A program made the translations under genes and the position numbers. The notes under the pieces are model-generated. The model was given only the letters and a program-made list of their open reading frames with translations, searched no databases and had not been told where the DNA came from. From Abditibacteriaceae bacterium (GTDB lineage Bacteria; Armatimonadota; Abditibacteriia; Abditibacteriales; Abditibacteriaceae), in NCBI GenBank assembly GCA_031425655.1, contig JANPJS010000150.1, positions 1 through 42,290 on the forward strand: a stretch of 42,290 bases of DNA, written 5' to 3'. Position 1 is the stretch's first letter. Every line of letters begins with the position of its first letter. Shown here one piece after another: positions 30,031 through 37,018 of this stretch.

Positions 30031-32685
30031 ATGACGCGAGAACGCATTGTCGCGCCCGAAGCGACCGCAGACGAAACCGAATGGAACTGGGGCTTGCGGC
30101 CTCGGCGCCTGGACGAATATGTCGGCCAACTGGAAACCGTCGAACGCTTAAAAATCGCCATCGAAGCGACCAAAGCGCGCGGCGAAACGCTCGATCATCT
30201 GCTTTTGCATGGCCCGCCGGGTTTGGGCAAATGCATCACGGCGGACAGCTTGATTCTCACAGACGGTGGTTTGATCAAGTTCGCCGATTTCATCCCGCCG
30301 GACATGGAGCCTGAATCTGCGAAGCCGGTTGAGGCGTGCGTTTACGGCCTGAAAGGTTTGGAAGCGGCCTCGCACGTTTACGCCAGCGGGCGCGTGCCGA
30401 CGCGAAAAGTCGCCACGCGCTCCGGCTTCAAAATCGAGGGCACGCATCGCCATCCTTTATTGGTGGCCACGCCGCATGGCCCGCAATGGAAGCCGCTGGG
30501 CACACTGAGTCCGGGCGATTACGTCGCCGTCGCGCGCGGCTGCGAGGTTTGGGGGCCGCGTCAGGTCACAACATGGATGCCGGACGCCAATTGGCATCGG
30601 CGGCGACGCAGCGAAGCCATCGTTACGCACTTGCACGCCACCTTATCGCAAACCCTGCAACGGCCTCCGGCTACAATTGAATTACGCAGCGCTTACGCCG
30701 AAGTCTGCGGCGGAGGCGCAACGCCCACGCCCGAACGCACCGCACAGCGTTTGGGTTTGATGCTGACCGATGGACGCAAAGTGCCGACAGCCATGCGGAA
30801 CGGCGCGACTTTGCCCCGCCCCGCTTTTCTGCCGGATGGACTCTTGGACGCACCGCACCCGCTGGAATTAAACGCTGACCTCGCTTATTTAATGGGCGCA
30901 TTTATCGGCGACGGGCACATGGAAAAGGGCGCCAACGCCCCAGCCTTCACCATCACCTGCGACGAAAGCGAAATGCAAAGCGAATTGCAGCGCGTCAGCC
31001 TCGCCTGCTTTGGCGCGGCGCCGATTGTGAACCATTATGATGAGCGCGCCGCCAATTTGCGTTGGAGCCAGAACATCGGCAAAGCTTTGCTGAATCTGGG
31101 TCTGAGTTCGGCGGGCGCTTTTGACAAAACCGTTCCATCCGGCATTTTGCGCGGCCCACGCGACGCCGCGATTGGCTTTTTGCAAGGCTTATTCGACGCC
31201 GACGGTTATGCCACCGACGATGGCGTCGGACTTGGCAGCCGCTCCGAACAGCTAACGCGCCAAACGCAATTACTGCTGCTGAACTTGGGCATCGTGGCGC
31301 ACCGCACCTGCAAAGAGGCGCACGGCGCCGCTTTTTGGATGCTGTTCATGGGCGGCAAAGACGCGCTGCTGTTTCACGACATCGTGAGCTTTCGCCTGAC
31401 GCGCAAAAGCGCGCGACGGGAAACCACAAAGATCACCGGCGACGGCTGGTGTCGCAGTGACTTGGTGCCGGGCGCTAATCCTTTGCTGCATTCACTGCTT
31501 AAAAAATCGGGGCCGCATCCGCGCGCCGTTCACAAAACATTCGACCACGCCAAACGCGACGACCGCGTGCCGACGCGCCGGAAAATCGAGGCGCATCTCA
31601 ATCTGCTGCCCGACGCCGCGCAACGCGAACCGGAATTCGCGGCGTTGCGCGCCCTGATGAACCCGCAATTCCACTGGGATCGCGTCGAGAGTTTGGACGA
31701 AAGCGAGGCCGAAGCCTTCGATTTCGTGGTGCCGGGCACGCATTCGTTCGTGGCCAACGGCTTTTTCAACCATAACACCACATTGGGATTTATCATCGCC
31801 GAAGAATTGGGGCGCGATATTTCCCTGACCAGCGGGCCGTCGCTGGAACGCCCCGCCGACTTGATGCCGTTTCTCATCAACGCCAAAGAAGGCGACATCA
31901 TTTTCATTGACGAAATTCATCGTTTGCCGCGCATCGTCGAAGAATTTCTGTATTCGGCGATGGAAGACTGGGTCGTCAATTTCACGCTGGATAAAGGGCT
32001 TTATTCCAAGCCTTTGCCGATTCGCTTGTCGAAATTCACGCTCATCGGCGCCACCACGCGCCCGGCCATTCTCACGCGGCCTCTGCGCGACCGCTTCGGC
32101 ATTCAACAGCATCTCGATTTCTACAACGTCGAAGATTTGACGACCATCGCGCGGCGTTCGGCGAAATTGCTGGACACGGAAATGGATTTGGAAGGCGCCA
32201 AAGAACTCGCGCGGCGTTCGCGCGGCACGCCGCGCATTGTCAACCGCCTGCTTCGCCGCGTGCGCGACTTCGCTCAAGTGCGCGCCGACGGCACGATTTC
32301 GCACGATGTCGCCAACGACGCGCTGAAACTCGAAGGCATTGACGCGCTCGGCCTCGACCGCCTCGATCACGCCGTGCTGCGCGTGATTAAAGATGTTTAC
32401 AATGGCGGCCCGGTCGGCAAAGAAGCCTTAGCCGCCACGCTCAACGAAGAAACCGACACCATCGAAGACGTAGTTGAGCCTTATCTTTTGAAAATCGGCT
32501 TTCTCGCGCGCACTCCGCAAGGCCGCCGCATCACGCGCCAAGCCTACGAATATCTGGGCGAAACCCCGCCCGCCACGGCGTTTCAAGCCCAGCCGTCGCT
32601 GTGGGAAGAAGTGCGCGATGCTGAGCCGAATTTGAAAGCGCGGAGTAAATCTAAATCTCCGAAGGAGATTGATGAAACTTATTAA
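30031..32685 (+). CDS. ruvB: Holliday junction branch migration helicase RuvB, intein-containing
   Basis: LRP..L.EY.GQ, GPPGLGK|TT, TSGP, FIDEIHRL, LIGATTR, PLRDRFG, SRGTPR, GGPVG, EPYL, RTPQGR. Confidence 0.95.
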   Translation: MTRERIVAPEATADETEWNWGLRPRRLDEYVGQLETVERLKIAIEATKARGETLDHLLLHGPPGLGKCITADSLILTDGGLIKFADFIPPDMEPESAKPVEACVYGLKGLEAASHVYASGRVPTRKVATRSGFKIEGTHRHPLLVATPHGPQWKPLGTLSPGDYVAVARGCEVWGPRQVTTWMPDANWHRRRRSEAIVTHLHATLSQTLQRPPATIELRSAYAEVCGGGATPTPERTAQRLGLMLTDGRKVPTAMRNGATLPRPAFLPDGLLDAPHPLELNADLAYLMGAFIGDGHMEKGANAPAFTITCDESEMQSELQRVSLACFGAAPIVNHYDERAANLRWSQNIGKALLNLGLSSAGAFDKTVPSGILRGPRDAAIGFLQGLFDADGYATDDGVGLGSRSEQLTRQTQLLLLNLGIVAHRTCKEAHGAAFWMLFMGGKDALLFHDIVSFRLTRKSARRETTKITGDGWCRSDLVPGANPLLHSLLKKSGPHPRAVHKTFDHAKRDDRVPTRRKIEAHLNLLPDAAQREPEFAALRALMNPQFHWDRVESLDESEAEAFDFVVPGTHSFVANGFFNHNTTLGFIIAEELGRDISLTSGPSLERPADLMPFLINAKEGDIIFIDEIHRLPRIVEEFLYSAMEDWVVNFTLDKGLYSKPLPIRLSKFTLIGATTRPAILTRPLRDRFGIQQHLDFYNVEDLTTIARRSAKLLDTEMDLEGAKELARRSRGTPRIVNRLLRRVRDFAQVRADGTISHDVANDALKLEGIDALGLDRLDHAVLRVIKDVYNGGPVGKEALAATLNEETDTIEDVVEPYLLKIGFLARTPQGRRITRQAYEYLGETPPATAFQAQPSLWEEVRDAEPNLKARSKSKSPKEIDETY
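30232..31776 (+). mobile_element. Intein (515 aa) with LAGLIDADG homing endonuclease, inserted in the RuvB Walker A motif
   Basis: Starts CITADS after GK; block B GTHRHPL; LMGAFIGDG and FLQGLFDADG; ends FVANGFFNHN then Thr+1. Confidence 0.95.
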
Positions 32686-32712: not shown

Positions 32713-33840
32713 ATGAAGTCTTGTATGCCAAAATCCACCACAAAATTCGACTTCGTCGACTTATTCGCCGGAATCGGCGGCTTTCGCCTTGCATTTGAAA
32801 GTCTCGGCGCGAACTGTGTATTTTCGTCGGAGTGGGATAAATATGCACAGGAAACCTATCAGGCGAACTTTGGCGAGTGCCCCTCCGGCGACATCACTCA
32901 ACTCATTCCGAAAGAAATTCCAAGACACGATATCCTCACGGCGGGTTTTCCCTGCCAGCCTTTTTCCATTGCTGGAGTCTCGAAAGCGAATGCTCTGGGC
33001 CGGGCGCATGGTTTCGAGCATGAAACTCAAGGCACCCTTTTCTTCGATGTTTGCCGTATTATCGCTCATCACCAGCCGCGCGCCTTTCTGCTGGAAAACG
33101 TCCGCAACTTGGTTTCTCACGATAAAGGGAATACCTTTCGAGTGATTAGACGAACATTAGAGGAAGACCTCGGTTATCACGTTAAAGCTCAAATTCTGGA
33201 TGCGCGTAAAGTCGTGCCGCAGCATCGCGAACGCATTTACATTGTGGGATTTAGGGAGGTGACCAACTTTGACTTCCCATTAATTCCTGATTTAAAACCG
33301 CGACTGCGCGACATCCTTGAGCCAGAGGTTGACGGTAAATATACACTCAGCGACCACCTCTGGACTTATCTCCAAGACTACGCGGCAAAACACAAAGCAG
33401 CAGGCAACGGTTTCGGCTTTGGGCTGCCGGACTTTGAAGGCACAACGCGCACTCTTTCCGCCCGCTATTATAAAGACGGTTCTGAAATTCTGATCCAGCA
33501 ACCCGGAAAAAACCCACGCCGTTTAACTCCTCGCGAGTGCGCCAGGCTAATGGGGTTCCCTGATTGGTTTAAGATTCCAGTCAGCGACACACGCGCTTAC
33601 AAGCAGTTTGGCAACTCCGTCGTTGTGCCAGTCGTGCGATTACTTGCTCAACAGGTTCTCCAATGTCTGCAACACCAAAAGCCACTCGCCAACGGGCAGC
33701 TCCGCTTAATAGATGTGCCCAGACCAAAAGCCTCGACTGTGCCATTGTTCGACGAATCCGGCGACGAATCCGAAAGTGGGGGATGGAAAATTACCGAGAT
33801 TTCCCCTGGCGGAATCCGCGCCGTATCTGGCACGCGCTGA
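32713..33840 (+). CDS. dcm: DNA (cytosine-5)-methyltransferase, Dcm/M.EcoRII-like; start may be 32725
   Basis: [68 protein letters not shown]. Confidence 0.9.
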
Positions 33841-34424
33841 TAGCCGAAGTGCTCTTGCAGCGCACGAGAGCAAAAAATGTCGTGCCCGTTTACGAAAAAT
33901 TCATCGCACGGTTTCCAGAAGCCGCTGATTTGAAAACGGCAAGTCTTGAGGAAATCGAAAGCCTGATTTATTCGCTTGGCCTGAAATGGCGGGCGCCTCT
34001 TCTAAAACAGCTTTGCGACCGCCTTGCCGCAACAAACGGCAAAATCCCCAACACTGTCGAAGCGTTGCTGCAATTACCAGCAGTCGGGCCATACGTTTCG
34101 GCAGCAATGATGAGTTTCCATTGCGGGAGACGCGGCTTAATAATTGATGTCAATGTAGTGCGGTGGCTTTGTCGCATGGTTGACAGGCCAATGGACGGCG
34201 AAACGAGACGCGATCTGTGGCTGATTGAATTAGCAGACAGCGTCACTCCCCGGCGTGAAGTGAAGCAGTTTAATTACGCGCTCCTCGATTTTTCGATGGA
34301 AATTTGCGCGAAGGTTCCAAAGTGCGAGCAGTGCCCTTTGCTTGACTTATGCGCTTATGGCCAGCGTCGAGGTCAAGCGCCTGACCCGGCCCCACGTTCA
34401 GAAAACTCTGGAGAAATCGTTTAA
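33663..34424 (+). CDS. HhH-GPD Fe-S DNA glycosylase, Mig-type (T/G mismatch) candidate
   Basis: RDFPWR, EVLLQRT, LPAVGPY, IDVNVVR, four-Cys Fe-S cluster [13 protein letters not shown]; no MutY C-terminal NUDIX-like domain. Confidence 0.82.
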
Positions 34425-34425
34425 A

Positions 34426-35742
34426 ATGCCCATATCAAATTTACAGCAGATGCGTTCTGCTATGGCTCAAAACGGCGCTGAACAGATTTACGTCAAGCGC
34501 TTAGCAGCAAATGACAACTCTAAGCAGCAGGTGTATCTCGGCTCTGACTTCTCCACGCTAAACATTATTCCGCACGCAGAGATTATTGCCTGCCCGGAAC
34601 CTAAAGAGCCGAATTTTAAGGCGGCGCTTAACTTTTTCTGGATTACTCCTGAGGGTCAGGCAGAACCTGCACCACACGCACAGCTAATTCTTTATCCCGA
34701 TTACCCGGAAGTCCGATTATCAGGCTTTCTTCTGGGATGCCGAGAGAAGCCTTCTCAATTGATGCAAAACCGCGAAGCGGGGCGTCTGTTGTTTCTTGGT
34801 GTATCAAAAGACGGGCGCGTTTTGGCTTATGCCGCACCGCATGACAGCCCGATAGTTCAAGAACTGGATGCGCTCGGCCAATTGGAAACAAGTGGTGTTT
34901 TTCAGGTCATTGCTCCTCCAGAAGTATCCGTTACCGACACACGGGAAGCTCTTTTACAGGAATTAGGAAGAATTCATCGTCTGGGATGGGTTGCAGCGCA
35001 AAAGCTATCTACGGATGGGACCACGATTACTTACGCCGGACAGAACGGCGGAGGATTTACTTTGGAATCGTATCTCGGCATCGGTGCGAACAGCCGATCC
35101 GAACCTGATTATCTCGGATGGGAAGTGAAACAATACGCTGTCTCGAACCTGGCTTTTCCTGAACGTGGTAGCGCCATCACGCTCATGACCTCAGAGCCGA
35201 ATGGTGGCGTTTATTCAAGAGACTTCTCTCAATTCATGAGAACGTATGGCCGCATGAGCAGCAAGACACCCGACAGGATTGATTTCACGGGCAAGCACAT
35301 CGTCGGCGAGCAGAATAAAACTACGGGGCTGACTCTGGAATTGCGGGGTTACGACGTTGGCACCAACAAAATAACGGATATAAACGGCGGCTTGCATCTG
35401 GTGGACACACGCGGAGAATCGGCGGCGGCGTGGAACTTTAGCGGACTACTCGATCATTGGAGCCGGAAGCACAATCAGGCGGTATATGTTCCCTGTCAGA
35501 GTGACAAAGAATCCACAGGAAGCCGTTATCGCTATGGAGATACCGTTCGGCTGGGCGAAGGGACAGAAGCCCTTTTGTTCATTCGAGCCTTGTCTTCAGC
35601 GTGGGTTTATTATGATCCCGCGCCCAAAATAGAACAAGCGTCCAGCGTGCGCCCGAAAGCAAAACGCCGCAACCAGTTTCGGATTTTGTTCAGACACCTC
35701 AGCCCGCTTTACCACCAATTTACGATAGCCAGAGTGCTTTAA
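34426..35742 (+). CDS. MvaI/BcnI-family restriction endonuclease with N-terminal accessory domain
   Basis: G.TLE..LGI.ANS...PDY.GWEVKQ, ITLMT.EP, HW.RKH..AVYVP, RNQFR; N-terminal YVKRLAANDNSK.Q.Y. Confidence 0.8.
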   Translation: MPISNLQQMRSAMAQNGAEQIYVKRLAANDNSKQQVYLGSDFSTLNIIPHAEIIACPEPKEPNFKAALNFFWITPEGQAEPAPHAQLILYPDYPEVRLSGFLLGCREKPSQLMQNREAGRLLFLGVSKDGRVLAYAAPHDSPIVQELDALGQLETSGVFQVIAPPEVSVTDTREALLQELGRIHRLGWVAAQKLSTDGTTITYAGQNGGGFTLESYLGIGANSRSEPDYLGWEVKQYAVSNLAFPERGSAITLMTSEPNGGVYSRDFSQFMRTYGRMSSKTPDRIDFTGKHIVGEQNKTTGLTLELRGYDVGTNKITDINGGLHLVDTRGESAAAWNFSGLLDHWSRKHNQAVYVPCQSDKESTGSRYRYGDTVRLGEGTEALLFIRALSSAWVYYDPAPKIEQASSVRPKAKRRNQFRILFRHLSPLYHQFTIARVL

Positions 35743-35750
35743 GCAACGCA

Positions 35751-35784
35751 AAAACGCCCCGCGAAAATCTTCGCGGGGCGTTTT
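35751..35784. terminator. Bidirectional terminator, copy 1
   Basis: aaaacgccccgcgaa-aatc-ttcgcggggcgtttt. Confidence 0.8.
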
Positions 35785-36007
35785 GCTTTATGCGGTTTAC
35801 GGCGTTGGAGTGGCGGGTTTGCAGTGGGACAGAAAACGCCTCCCCAAATGGAAGGCGTTTTCGTTACTTTTTCTACGAGTGGTAGATAAGCTGATAATAA
35901 TTTTACCTCAATTCCCCCGTTGATAACTACGTCGCAGCGGTTTTGAAGCGGTTGATTAGACGCTGTTTCCCCTATCGGCGTTGCCTTCCGGCAGAGCCAA
36001 GCATCGT

Positions 36008-36043
36008 CAAAACGCCCCGCGAAGATTTTCGCGGGGCGTTTTG
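36008..36043. terminator. Bidirectional terminator, copy 2
   Basis: caaaacgccccgcgaa-gatt-ttcgcggggcgttttg. Confidence 0.75.
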
Positions 36044-36236
36044 CTGTGTGGTTTTATGGCGTTCGTGGCGCGGCGGGTTTGCGGTGGGCGCGGGTGTTGC
36101 GCAGGAGTTTGGTTTCCTGCCATGCAGCGAGTTTGTTTTTGTCGCGCGCACTTTACTCACCTAATGATGCCTCATTTTCGTGCGGCGAATTACATGGGCG
36201 CCGATTAAACTGAAAGGGCACCCGAAAGCGAAGATT

Positions 36237-36527
36237 ATGACTCTGACTTTGGAACTTAGCCCCGACGCCCAGCGCGAATTGGAAGAAGCGGCGCGCATCG
36301 AAGGCCGCACCGTCGCCGATTACGCCGCGCGGCTTTTGCACGAAGCAGCTTTGGCGCGGCGCCATGAGATTACAGCGCGATTGGCGGCGTTGGAAGAATG
36401 GGACAAGGAAATCGCGGCGCGTCCCGATTATCGCGCGCAGGCAGGCTTGCCTCCACTTGGCGATACCAGTCGTTCAGCAGAACCGGACATTTACGGCTAC
36501 TCAGAGCGTGAGGATGCTCAGTTGTGA
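36237..36527 (+). CDS. Putative RHH-type antitoxin
   Basis: MTLTLELSPD..RELEEAARIEGRTVADYAARLL; overlaps downstream PIN gene. Confidence 0.72.
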   Translation: MTLTLELSPDAQRELEEAARIEGRTVADYAARLLHEAALARRHEITARLAALEEWDKEIAARPDYRAQAGLPPLGDTSRSAEPDIYGYSEREDAQL

Positions 36528-37018
36528 TTTTCTCCCCAGCGCCTGCCGTGCATTATCTTGTGGATGCCAATGTTCTGCTCAGGAGAGTCGAACCGACGCA
36601 CCCACATCATGCAGCCGCGATGCTGTCCGTAACTAACCTCATTAAATCCGGCGCGACAATTTGCATCGCCCCACAATGTCTTTACGAATTCTGGGCCGTA
36701 GCGACGAGGCCCGTCGCATCACGAGGTTTGGGACTTTCTTCTCTACAGGCCGACCGCGATCTCGCACGCGCTGAGTCGCTGTTCACGCTTCTGCCCGATG
36801 GCCCGACGGTTTATCCTCACTGGCGCCGGCTCGTTCGCCAATACAACACGCAGGGAAAACCTTCGCACGATGCACGCCTTGTCGCGTTCATGTTGACGCA
36901 CGGCATTTCGCATCTGCTGACCTTTAACGGCAGCGATTTTCAACGCTATATTTCTGAGGGAATTACGATTGTCAACCCGGCCAGCCTATCGGCTGTGCCT
37001 TCACAGGAACAACTATGA
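36524..37018 (+). CDS. PIN-domain (VapC-like) toxin
   Basis: YLVDANVL, Q.LYEFW.VATRP, HDARLVA, LLTFN..DF. Confidence 0.88.
   Translation: MIFSPAPAVHYLVDANVLLRRVEPTHPHHAAAMLSVTNLIKSGATICIAPQCLYEFWAVATRPVASRGLGLSSLQADRDLARAESLFTLLPDGPTVYPHWRRLVRQYNTQGKPSHDARLVAFMLTHGISHLLTFNGSDFQRYISEGITIVNPASLSAVPSQEQL

What the first reader, a model, noticed from the sequence alone, without database searches (positions are those of the whole stretch)
32713..35742. Restriction-modification island with a Mig-type glycosylase in place of Vsr
Seen: an overlapping three-gene unit of Dcm-like C5 methylase, HhH-GPD Fe-S glycosylase and MvaI/BcnI-like endonuclease, visibly more AT-rich than its flanks and directly after ruvB. 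The glycosylase reads EVLLQRT, with Arg where MutY has the second Gln of MLQQT, and has no MutY C-terminal domain. Known: Dcm/EcoRII-type methylases target CCWGG and are often paired with Vsr to repair T:G mismatches from 5mC deamination; the archaeal Mig.MthI (LLRRT motif) does this by base excision next to a C5-methylase RM system. Inference: a bacterial RM module carrying its own T:G glycosylase, or a glycosylase that acts on modified phage DNA as a third defence component.
Basis: partly seen in the sequence, partly recalled or inferred. Interest (0 to 1): 0.78.

Follow-up and report, generated by a model that had tools for sequence, protein, structure and literature searches.

The report
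Repair glycosylase replaces Vsr beside methylase
This is a restriction-modification cassette whose middle gene, in the slot that related cassettes give to the repair nuclease Vsr, encodes a Mig-like DNA glycosylase that likely removes the thymines formed when methylated cytosines decay; the pairing is known from an archaeal plasmid, so this is a tidy bacterial variant rather than a new system.

Summary
32713-35742 is a low-GC cassette behind ruvB, not found in close relatives. It holds a Dcm-type C5 methylase (51% to E. coli Dcm), a short Fe-S HhH-GPD glycosylase, and a two-domain endonuclease built like UbaLAI (B3 + MvaI/BcnI). The glycosylase keeps the Mig.MthI residues F27, R30, E42, R47, A50, Y126 and D144 but has Tyr for L187. 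It falls outside MutY (AU p=0.0003), and the genome has its own MutY. In its clade, 55 of 56 evaluable loci have a C5 methylase within 1.5 kb (0 of 35 MutY controls), and methylase fusions exist. Of 67 Dcm-type loci found through the methylase, 39 had Vsr, 5 a Mig-like gene and none both. The endonuclease is interchangeable (EcoRII type commoner), so the conserved unit is methylase plus glycosylase, not a triad. Best reading: CCWGG restriction-modification with base-excision repair of T:G/U:G in place of Vsr; no activity was tested. I found nothing pointing to an anti-phage glycosylase. The pairing is known from plasmid pFV1, and this scan has noted it before in other genomes. New variant of a known kind; interest 0.3.

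The parts
32713..33840 (+). Dcm/M.EcoRII-type C5-cytosine DNA methyltransferase, 375 aa, predicted target CCWGG; a 55-aa tail runs over the glycosylase gene
   Evidence: Pfam PF00145 E 8e-93; TIGR00675 above cut-off; best PADLOC model DrmMII; 51% identity to E. coli Dcm over 352 columns, including the target-recognition stretch
33663..34424 (+). Mig-like monofunctional HhH-GPD [4Fe-4S] DNA glycosylase, 253 aa. The start is ATG 33663 rather than ATG 33783, because the first predicted helix and a conserved Trp lie upstream of 33783.
   Evidence: Top PDB hit Mig.MthI 1KEA by sequence (E 1e-32) and by fold; residue map; model with pLDDT 92 and helix 26-43; start position conserved in 46 of 71 methylase-glycosylase pairs
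33663..33840 (+). 178-nt out-of-frame overlap: the glycosylase start codon lies inside the methylase's last helix, 56 nt after the start of motif X
   Evidence: overlaps of 28-178 nt in the 46 pairs with this start; no shared slippery heptamer
33697..33711 (+). QLRLI in the methylase tail, resembling beta-clamp-binding motifs; binding untested
   Evidence: pattern chosen after seeing the data
34426..34929 (+). Endonuclease N-terminal B3-like effector domain (about residues 1-168)
   Evidence: fold matches to BfiI-C Z 10.7, UbaLAI-N (5O63) Z 10.5, EcoRII-N Z 9.2; Foldseek E 1.5e-4 to 3.9e-4
34930..35742 (+). Endonuclease C-terminal MvaI/BcnI-type PD-(D/E)XK domain, with E214, D228, E233 and K235
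   Evidence: Pfam PF15515 E 3e-38; BcnI Z 17.5, MvaI Z 14.9; the four residues are invariant in 120 of 120 alignment rows
35743..35790 (+). Strong hairpin right after the endonuclease stop, terminator- or REP-like; a second copy at about 36001-36050
   Evidence: -32 and -34 kcal/mol; similar elements on three other contigs; not called by the terminator scan

Best explanation
The cassette is a Type II restriction-modification module, likely acquired horizontally, in which a Dcm-type methylase is predicted to mark CCWGG, a UbaLAI-like endonuclease is predicted to cut unmarked CCWGG, and the middle gene encodes a Mig-like glycosylase that likely removes T (or U) from the T:G (U:G) mispairs left when the marked cytosine deaminates. 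Shown: gene identities, folds, catalytic and pocket residues, linkage to C5 methylases, and that Vsr usually holds the slot. Inferred: the methylase writes Cm5CWGG; the endonuclease binds one site through its B3 domain and nicks both strands of a second site in turn; the glycosylase flips the mispaired T (Arg67), binds it with Glu62/Phe47/Arg50/Ala70/Tyr144 and releases it by hydrolysis (Asp162). It has Tyr, not Lys, at the lyase position, so it would leave an abasic site for the host's AP endonucleases, polymerase and ligase, after which the methylase re-marks the restored C. The embedded start codon would couple production of the repair enzyme to that of the methylase. The glycosylase is thus a safeguard for the host genome and for the cassette's own sites, not a weapon.
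For: Residues: Mig F27, R30, E42, R47, A50, Y126, D144, N146 and four Cys correspond to F47, R50, E62, R67, A70, Y144, D162, N164 and C215/221/224/230, where E. coli MutY has L22, Q25, Q42, V45 and S120. In the 111-row alignment R67, Y144 and D162 are invariant, A70 is in 101 and F/Y47 in 111. PMC2714593 (passages) names A50/L187 as specificity residues and F27, R30, R47, Y126 as thymine-pocket residues. Tree: MutY is a 100/99 group without the query, and forcing the query into it is rejected (p-AU 0.00026). The genome has a separate MutY on C92. Linkage: 55 of 56 main-clade loci with at least 2.5 kb on both sides have a C5 methylase within 1.5 kb, against 0 of 35 MutY loci. Four of the five evaluable loci without one in view have one 7.6-10.1 kb upstream. 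Partner methylases fall into several unrelated clusters and partner effectors vary: EcoRII-C, MvaI type, Eco29kI, DISARM DrmA/B, HNH. Three methylase-glycosylase fusions exist, in both orders. Vsr pattern: Vsr in 3 of 160 glycosylase loci, each of which also holds a second methylase. The same methylase-endonuclease pair carries Vsr in 7 of 9 plasmid regions fetched, three with the order dcm-vsr-endonuclease, and none has the glycosylase. Of 67 methylase-anchored loci: 39 Vsr, 5 Mig-like, 0 both, 23 neither. The genome's two other C5 methylases each lie next to a Vsr. Xth and Nfo are present.
Against: No activity was measured. Position 187 is Tyr (109 of 111 rows), neither Mig's Leu nor MutY's Gln, so the pocket differs from the characterised enzyme. 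Monophyly with Mig.MthI is weak (91/72), and a sister relation of the whole clade to MutY is not rejected (p-AU 0.34). Identity to Mig.MthI (36.4%) is no higher than to E. coli MutY (36.1%). PMC2714593 shows that such residues do not predict activity reliably: MutY V45A/Q182L gained no T:G activity. The exclusivity test (Fisher p 0.010) is confounded by phylum and kinship: in the two phyla with Mig cases the counts are 5 Mig, 6 Vsr, 8 neither (p about 0.11 by hand), and 23 of 67 loci have neither gene within 1.5 kb. The genome has two Vsr genes elsewhere, so the glycosylase may not be the only T:G repair route. CCWGG specificity rests on homology; the genome's CCWGG depletion is shared by a relative in which the methylase was not found, so it is not evidence for this cassette.
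Confidence: 0.82

Rival explanations
1. The glycosylase is still a methylase-linked repair enzyme, but the Tyr205 pocket has shifted its main substrate away from plain T:G, for example to oxidised 5mC or thymine products opposite G (thymine glycol, hydroxymethyluracil) or mainly to U:G made by the methylase itself.
For: Tyr replaces L187 in 125 of 134 main-clade locus proteins and 109 of 111 alignment rows, and a sister clade has Trp there. Mig.MthI itself is promiscuous: U/G = T/G > G/G > T/C = U/C > A/G (PMC2714593 passage). The host genome already has two Vsr genes.
Against: All other named thymine-pocket residues are kept. The near absence of Vsr from these loci (3 of 160) fits replacement of T:G repair best. 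Leu occurs at this position in a few clade members with the same neighbours (5 of 134).
Confidence: 0.09
2. The glycosylase is a third defence component that excises modified or unusual bases from phage DNA that escapes the CCWGG endonuclease.
For: It always sits in defence loci: RM, DISARM-like and Mza-like. Glycosylases and EndoIII-like domains do serve in defence (Brig1 and END nucleases, PMC12191111 passages). In the sister clade it can lie 8-10 kb from the methylase, next to a large DndH-like ATPase.
Against: The one constant partner is a C5 methylase, whatever the effector. It is fused to methylases and alternates with Vsr. END nucleases use a catalytically dead Ogg/EndoIII domain fused to a nuclease, whereas this protein is a free-standing mismatch-type enzyme with intact catalytic residues.
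Confidence: 0.06
3. It is a truncated MutY paralogue that removes A opposite G or 8-oxoG, and its place next to the methylase is incidental.
For: Best NCBIfam model is mutY, though at 141 bits against a cut-off of 286.5. Sources label homologs 'A/G-specific adenine glycosylase'. Ten of 111 rows have the MutY-type Val at position 70.
Against: Excluded from the MutY group (p-AU 0.00026). It lacks Q42, V45, Q182 and the 8-oxoG-binding C-terminal domain. The genome has a full MutY. MutY loci show no methylase link (0 of 35).
Confidence: 0.03

Closest known systems
Mig.MthI (PDB 1KEA) with the MthTI restriction-modification genes on Methanothermobacter plasmid pFV1
   Same: Short Fe-S HhH-GPD glycosylase without a MutY C-terminal domain; same F27/R30/E42/R47/A50/Y126/D144 set; encoded near a C5 methylase and an endonuclease; best PDB match by sequence and fold.
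   Different: Only 36% identical; Tyr for L187 and Gln for R46; a separate 100/99 clade, almost all bacterial; overlaps the methylase in one operon, whereas mig is on the opposite strand about 1.4 kb from its methylase; partner is Dcm-type, not M.MthTI-type (30% identity).
Dcm/M.EcoRII-type methylase plus Vsr (very short patch repair)
   Same: Same methylase family (51% to E. coli Dcm); same arrangement of a repair gene overlapping the methylase's 3' end; same inferred purpose.
   Different: Repair would start by base excision rather than by a nick; no Vsr in the cassette; the overlap is 178 nt against 20 nt for E. coli dcm-vsr.
R.UbaLAI, monomeric Type IIE CC/WGG endonuclease (PMC5766183)
   Same: N-terminal EcoRII-N-like B3 domain of about 165 residues joined to an MvaI-like catalytic domain; similar length (438 against 405 aa).
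   Different: Only 16-20% identity to UbaLAI-N in structural alignments and no sequence hit, so it is a distant family with the same architecture; site and Type IIE behaviour untested. The family is large (3162 hits among the 7998 candidates scored).
MutY adenine glycosylase
   Same: Same fold and Fe-S cluster, E/D catalytic pair, 34-36% identity.
   Different: No C-terminal 8-oxoG domain, different pocket residues, separate clade, and methylase linkage that MutY lacks.

Membership tests
Mig (T/U:G mismatch glycosylase, type Mig.MthI) | HhH-GPD fold with four-Cys Fe-S cluster and no MutY C-terminal domain | tested here: met
Mig (T/U:G mismatch glycosylase, type Mig.MthI) | Catalytic E42, D144, N146 and Tyr126 at the lyase position (monofunctional) | tested here: met
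   E62, D162, N164, Y144; invariant in 111 of 111 rows
Mig (T/U:G mismatch glycosylase, type Mig.MthI) | Thymine-pocket and flipping residues F27, R30, R47, A50 | tested here: met
   F47, R50, R67, A70; residue roles from PMC2714593 passages
Mig (T/U:G mismatch glycosylase, type Mig.MthI) | Specificity residue L187 (MutY Q182) | tested here: not met
   Tyr205, in 109 of 111 rows; hence called Mig-like, not a strict member
Mig (T/U:G mismatch glycosylase, type Mig.MthI) | One clade with Mig.MthI | tested here: inconclusive
   best tree groups them at 91/72; alternative not rejected, p-AU 0.34
Mig (T/U:G mismatch glycosylase, type Mig.MthI) | Genetic linkage to a C5 methylase | tested here: met
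   55 of 56 evaluable main-clade loci; fusions
Mig (T/U:G mismatch glycosylase, type Mig.MthI) | Excises T and U opposite G | not testable with these tools
   needs an enzyme assay
MutY | QQT motif with V45 and Q182, C-terminal 8-oxoG domain, place in the MutY clade | tested here: not met
   QRT, Ala, Tyr; no C-terminal domain; p-AU 0.00026; TIGR01084 141 bits against cut-off 286.5
Endonuclease III (Nth) | Lyase Lys120 | tested here: not met
   Tyr144 at that column; TIGR01083 50 bits against cut-off 211.7
Dcm/M.EcoRII-type C5 methylase | C5 motifs (FxGxG, PCQ, ENV, motif X) and Dcm-type target-recognition stretch | tested here: met
   51% to E. coli Dcm with the stretch conserved; below the cut-off of the enterobacterial subfamily model PRK10458 (390 against 710 bits)
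Dcm/M.EcoRII-type C5 methylase | Methylates the inner C of CCWGG | not testable with these tools
   inferred from homology and from pairing of the same methylase clade with EcoRII-C proteins; word counts not specific
UbaLAI-type Type IIE endonuclease | B3 effector domain fused to an MvaI/BcnI catalytic domain | tested here: met
   definition from PMC5766183
UbaLAI-type Type IIE endonuclease | Intact PD-(D/E)XK centre | tested here: met
   P227-D228...E233-x-K235 invariant in 120 of 120 rows; that this spacing equals MvaI/BcnI's is recalled, not from a call
UbaLAI-type Type IIE endonuclease | Monomer, cuts CC/WGG, needs two sites | not testable with these tools
   needs biochemistry
DISARM class II | drmA, drmB, drmC, drmE beside drmMII | tested here: not met
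   only the methylase matches DrmMII; the neighbours are ruvB, vapBC and a peptidase-like gene

The most novel reading that the evidence does not exclude
The Tyr205 clade is not only a T:G repair enzyme: its altered pocket lets it excise modified pyrimidines from invading phage DNA that resists the CCWGG endonuclease, making it a base-excision defence module that cytosine-methylating systems (EcoRII, UbaLAI-like, Eco29kI-like, DISARM-like) swap in for Vsr.
Probability: 0.06. Interest if true: 0.75.

Novelty: new variant of a known kind. Interest (0 to 1): 0.3.

Why it matters
If right, bacteria that methylate cytosine have two interchangeable remedies for 5mC deamination, Vsr nicking and Mig-type base excision. 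The second, characterised in thermophilic archaea, would be common in Armatimonadota, Chloroflexota, Acidobacteriota and others, where sources label it MutY or hypothetical. This gives a clean swap test (glycosylase for vsr in E. coli dcm+), corrects annotation, and offers T:G/U:G glycosylases from hosts that are not all thermophiles, of possible use for measuring deamination damage. It opens no new mechanism. PADLOC already scores the protein against a 221-position 'Type II nicking endonuclease' model, which I infer is built on Mig.MthI as an RM accessory gene.

Tried and rejected
(1) Programmed frameshift making a methylase-glycosylase fusion, suggested by the long conserved overlap: rejected. 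Only 3 of the loci listed had a slippery heptamer, at different places, while 46 of 71 pairs have a start codon at one fixed position. (2) Genome-wide CCWGG depletion (ratio 0.36, rank 3-4 of 1024) as evidence for the target: rejected, since a 400-kb sample of relative G003 is as depleted (0.15) and no Dcm-type match was found in it (79% complete). (3) An apparent Mig-Vsr fusion in L051: the two are adjacent genes in different frames. (4) Complex prediction of the methylase tail (35 residues) with the genome's DnaN gave no verdict (0.28, mark 0.34); it is not used either way. (5) Two scans of viral contigs found no relative of the glycosylase; these are pattern scans, so weak. (6) Sequence search of the endonuclease against PDB found nothing; the fold search did. 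(7) The promoter and terminator scan gave counts at chance level. (8) The first 108-row careful tree did not finish and a quick tree was returned; conclusions rest on the 34-row careful tree, for which I picked 12 clade, 6 Mig-like, 5 sister-clade, 9 MutY and 2 Nth rows. (9) Literature searches returned no paper on bacterial Mig-like genes in the Vsr position, nor on clamp motifs in Dcm-type methylases. The library lacks most subscription papers; PMC12962327 (HhH review) and PMC5739279 (DISARM) were not held. PMC3089477 passages gave no catalytic residue numbers; passages of PMC8307549, PMC10273834 and PMC6116569 added nothing on this question. No supplements were read.
Full report
What is there. 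The window is contig C150 of the genome. After an intein-containing ruvB (stop 32685) come three co-directional genes: a C5-cytosine methylase (32713-33840), an HhH-GPD glycosylase (33663-34424) and an MvaI/BcnI-family endonuclease (34426-35742), then two copies of a strong hairpin and a vapBC-like pair. The cassette is 51.1% GC against 56.7% for the genome, in the lowest 2.5% of 1835 windows, with third-position GC of 0.51-0.53 against 0.69 in ruvB. No orthologue of the glycosylase was found in 40 relatives: their best matches were far weaker, and the 29 fetched all carry the MutY signature. No Dcm-type methylase was found in 23 genomes of the same family, and the ruvB regions of five relatives hold none of the cassette genes (three read for 11-14 kb, two cut short by contig ends). 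Recent horizontal gain is therefore likely.

The methylase. It is 51% identical to E. coli Dcm over 352 columns, including the target-recognition stretch, and 30% to M.MthTI. The same methylase clade is paired elsewhere with EcoRII-C proteins, and EcoRII recognises CCWGG (PMC5766183, passages). CCWGG is thus the likely target. The genome is poor in CCWGG (ratio 0.36), but so is a relative in which this methylase was not found, so I do not count this.

The endonuclease. The model (pLDDT 95) has two domains: residues 1-168 match the B3 domains of BfiI, UbaLAI and EcoRII (Z 9.2-10.7) and residues 169-436 match BcnI and MvaI (Z 17.5, 14.9). This is the architecture of UbaLAI, a monomeric Type IIE CC/WGG enzyme (PMC5766183, abstract and passages), at only 16-20% identity. 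The PD...ExK residues are invariant in 120 of 120 rows. The family is common.

The glycosylase. Its best solved relative is Mig.MthI by sequence (E 1e-32) and by fold, narrowly ahead of MutY. I fetched Mig.MthI from pFV1, and MutY and Nth from E. coli records. The query has the Mig residues F27, R30, E42, R47, A50, Y126, D144, N146 and the four cysteines, and Tyr at L187. PMC2714593 (passages) reports that A50V plus L187Q shifts Mig from T/G to A/G (citing Fondufe-Mittendorf 2002, not read), names F27, R30, R47 and Y126 as pocket residues, and also shows that the reverse change in MutY gave no T:G activity. [quoted passage not shown] In an alignment of the query with 110 of the 120 listed homologs (454 found; the self hit and nine short ones left out), R67, Y144 and D162 are invariant, A70 is in 101 rows and Y205 in 109. 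In a 34-row tree MutY is a 100/99 group, the query's clade another, and placing the query inside MutY is rejected (p-AU 0.00026). The grouping with Mig.MthI is only 91/72, and a sister relation to MutY is not rejected (p-AU 0.34). The genome has its own MutY and three Nth-like genes.

Neighbourhoods, from the glycosylase. I fetched 160 loci (the best 80 of 147 in genomes and the best 80 of 449 in metagenomes). The scan patterns required the LLQRT-type motif in part, and some loci are duplicates. A C5 methylase lay in 133 of 160. In the main clade (139 loci), 56 had at least 2.5 kb on both sides, and 55 of these have the methylase within 1.5 kb. In a sister clade with Trp at position 187 (21 loci with one archaeal row, 16 evaluable) 12 have one within 6 kb. 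Of the five evaluable loci without one, four have it 7.6-10.1 kb upstream on the same strand, and one genome showed none. None of 35 MutY loci (29 with 1.5 kb flanks, 6 with 2.5-4 kb) had one. Of six plasmid Mig-like regions read, five had a C5 methylase and one (Gloeothece) did not. Of 131 partner methylases of 200 residues or more, 79 carry the Dcm stretch; the rest form several unrelated clusters. Effectors vary: a cluster matching EcoRII-C in 46 loci (single linkage, a few may be shadow frames), the MvaI type in 16, and Eco29kI, DISARM DrmA/B, HNH and Mza-like genes in others. Three proteins fuse a methylase and such a glycosylase, in both orders; each is on record from one or two contigs.

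Vsr or Mig. A Vsr profile built from the genome's own two Vsr genes recovered E. coli Vsr and the annotated plasmid ones. It found Vsr in 3 of the 160 loci, each with a second methylase. The same methylase-endonuclease pair on plasmids (17 records) has Vsr in 7 of 9 regions fetched and the glycosylase in none; five further records list Vsr under the match. Searching 1855 genomes of five phyla with the methylase gave 70 loci besides the query; leaving out three centre genomes reached through the glycosylase, 67 remain: 39 with Vsr, 5 with a Mig-like gene, none with both and 23 with neither within 1.5 kb. Fisher's p is 0.010, but kin are not independent, and all five Mig cases lie in two phyla where the counts are 5, 6 and 8 (p about 0.11 by hand). 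One of the five (L232) is a divergently placed gene with Mig.MthI's RRT motif, which suggests a separate recruitment. In the query genome the two other C5 methylases each have a Vsr nearby.

The overlap. The glycosylase start lies inside the methylase's last helix. In 46 of 71 distinct pairs an in-frame ATG, GTG or TTG stands exactly 56 nt after the start of motif X, giving overlaps of 28-178 nt, with no shared slippery site. The database's 213-aa call of this gene would cut off a predicted helix and a conserved Trp, so 33663 is the better start. The methylase tail in the overlap often carries QLxL/QLxF (15 of 72 tails here, 9 of 47 in Dcm loci without Mig; shuffle means 0.5 and 0.3; pattern chosen after seeing the data). 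It resembles the clamp motifs QL(S/D)LF and QL[SP]LPL (PMC9690074 and PMC3836487, passages). It is a trait of some Dcm-type methylases, not of this pairing, and binding is untested.

Mechanism. Shown: parts, folds, residues, linkage, alternation with Vsr. Inferred: 5mC is written at CCWGG; the endonuclease cuts unmarked sites; deamination gives T:G; the glycosylase removes T or U and leaves an abasic site for Xth or Nfo, both present; C is restored and re-marked. I put this at 0.82. A shifted repair substrate (0.09), a defence role (0.06) and a MutY-like role (0.03) remain.

Novelty. Mig beside an RM system is the founding case (pFV1; Horst and Fritz 1996, seen only as a citation). Eight searches found no paper on the bacterial clade in the Vsr slot, within a library that lacks most subscription journals. 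Earlier notes of this scan reached the same reading on other genomes; I had stated my reading before opening them, and they are not independent support. What is added here is the UbaLAI-type partner, the methylase-anchored count and the fixed internal start. New variant of a known kind; interest 0.3.

Noticed in passing
window 30232-31776 (+), inside ruvB 30031-32685: RuvB carries a 515-aa intein with a LAGLIDADG domain, inserted in the Walker A motif. Relative G003 has it at the same site (59% identity); the ruvB loci of G001, G002, G005 and G007 showed no match.
   Followed up: partly
window 33697-33711 and methylase tails in L008-L167, L229-L319: Many Dcm-type methylases end in a tail with a QLxL/QLxF motif like the beta-clamp motif, far above shuffles, with or without the glycosylase. 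It may tether methylation to new DNA; untested.
   Followed up: partly
L067, L068, L070, L079, L082, L085: A sister clade of the glycosylase with Trp at position 187 often lies directly behind a giant (1868 aa in L070) DndH/HerA-like ATPase gene, with the C5 methylase about 9-10 kb upstream in L068 and L085 and none found in the genome of L067. Possibly an undescribed defence operon.
   Followed up: partly
L273:1856-3787 (P0243); P0244; P0245: Single-chain fusions of C5 methylase and Mig-like glycosylase in both orders.
   Followed up: partly
L297 (and L028:3596-5938): A Dcm-type methylase runs in one 781-aa frame into what looks like a degenerate UbaLAI-like endonuclease.
   Followed up: no
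whole genome G000 and sample of G003: Extreme avoidance of GTAC (0.01), CTAG (0.03), GGWCC (0.09), CCWGG (0.36) and GATC (0.44), shared with the relative: a lineage-wide footprint, perhaps of long exposure to restriction systems.
   Followed up: partly
window 36234-37018 (+): vapBC-like toxin-antitoxin pair (PIN domain) just downstream, overlapping the start of a 968-aa gene that looks like a zinc peptidase by my reading; may belong to the same variable region.
   Followed up: no
L222:4376-6870 (G003, downstream of ruvB): In the relative, ruvB is followed by a sugar-kinase-like gene and an adenine-methylase-like gene on the other strand (read from the translation), so the ruvB 3' side seems a variable spot.
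   Followed up: no
L051, L119, L132: The only glycosylase loci with Vsr each hold two C5 methylases, as if each methylase brought its own repair gene.
   Followed up: partly
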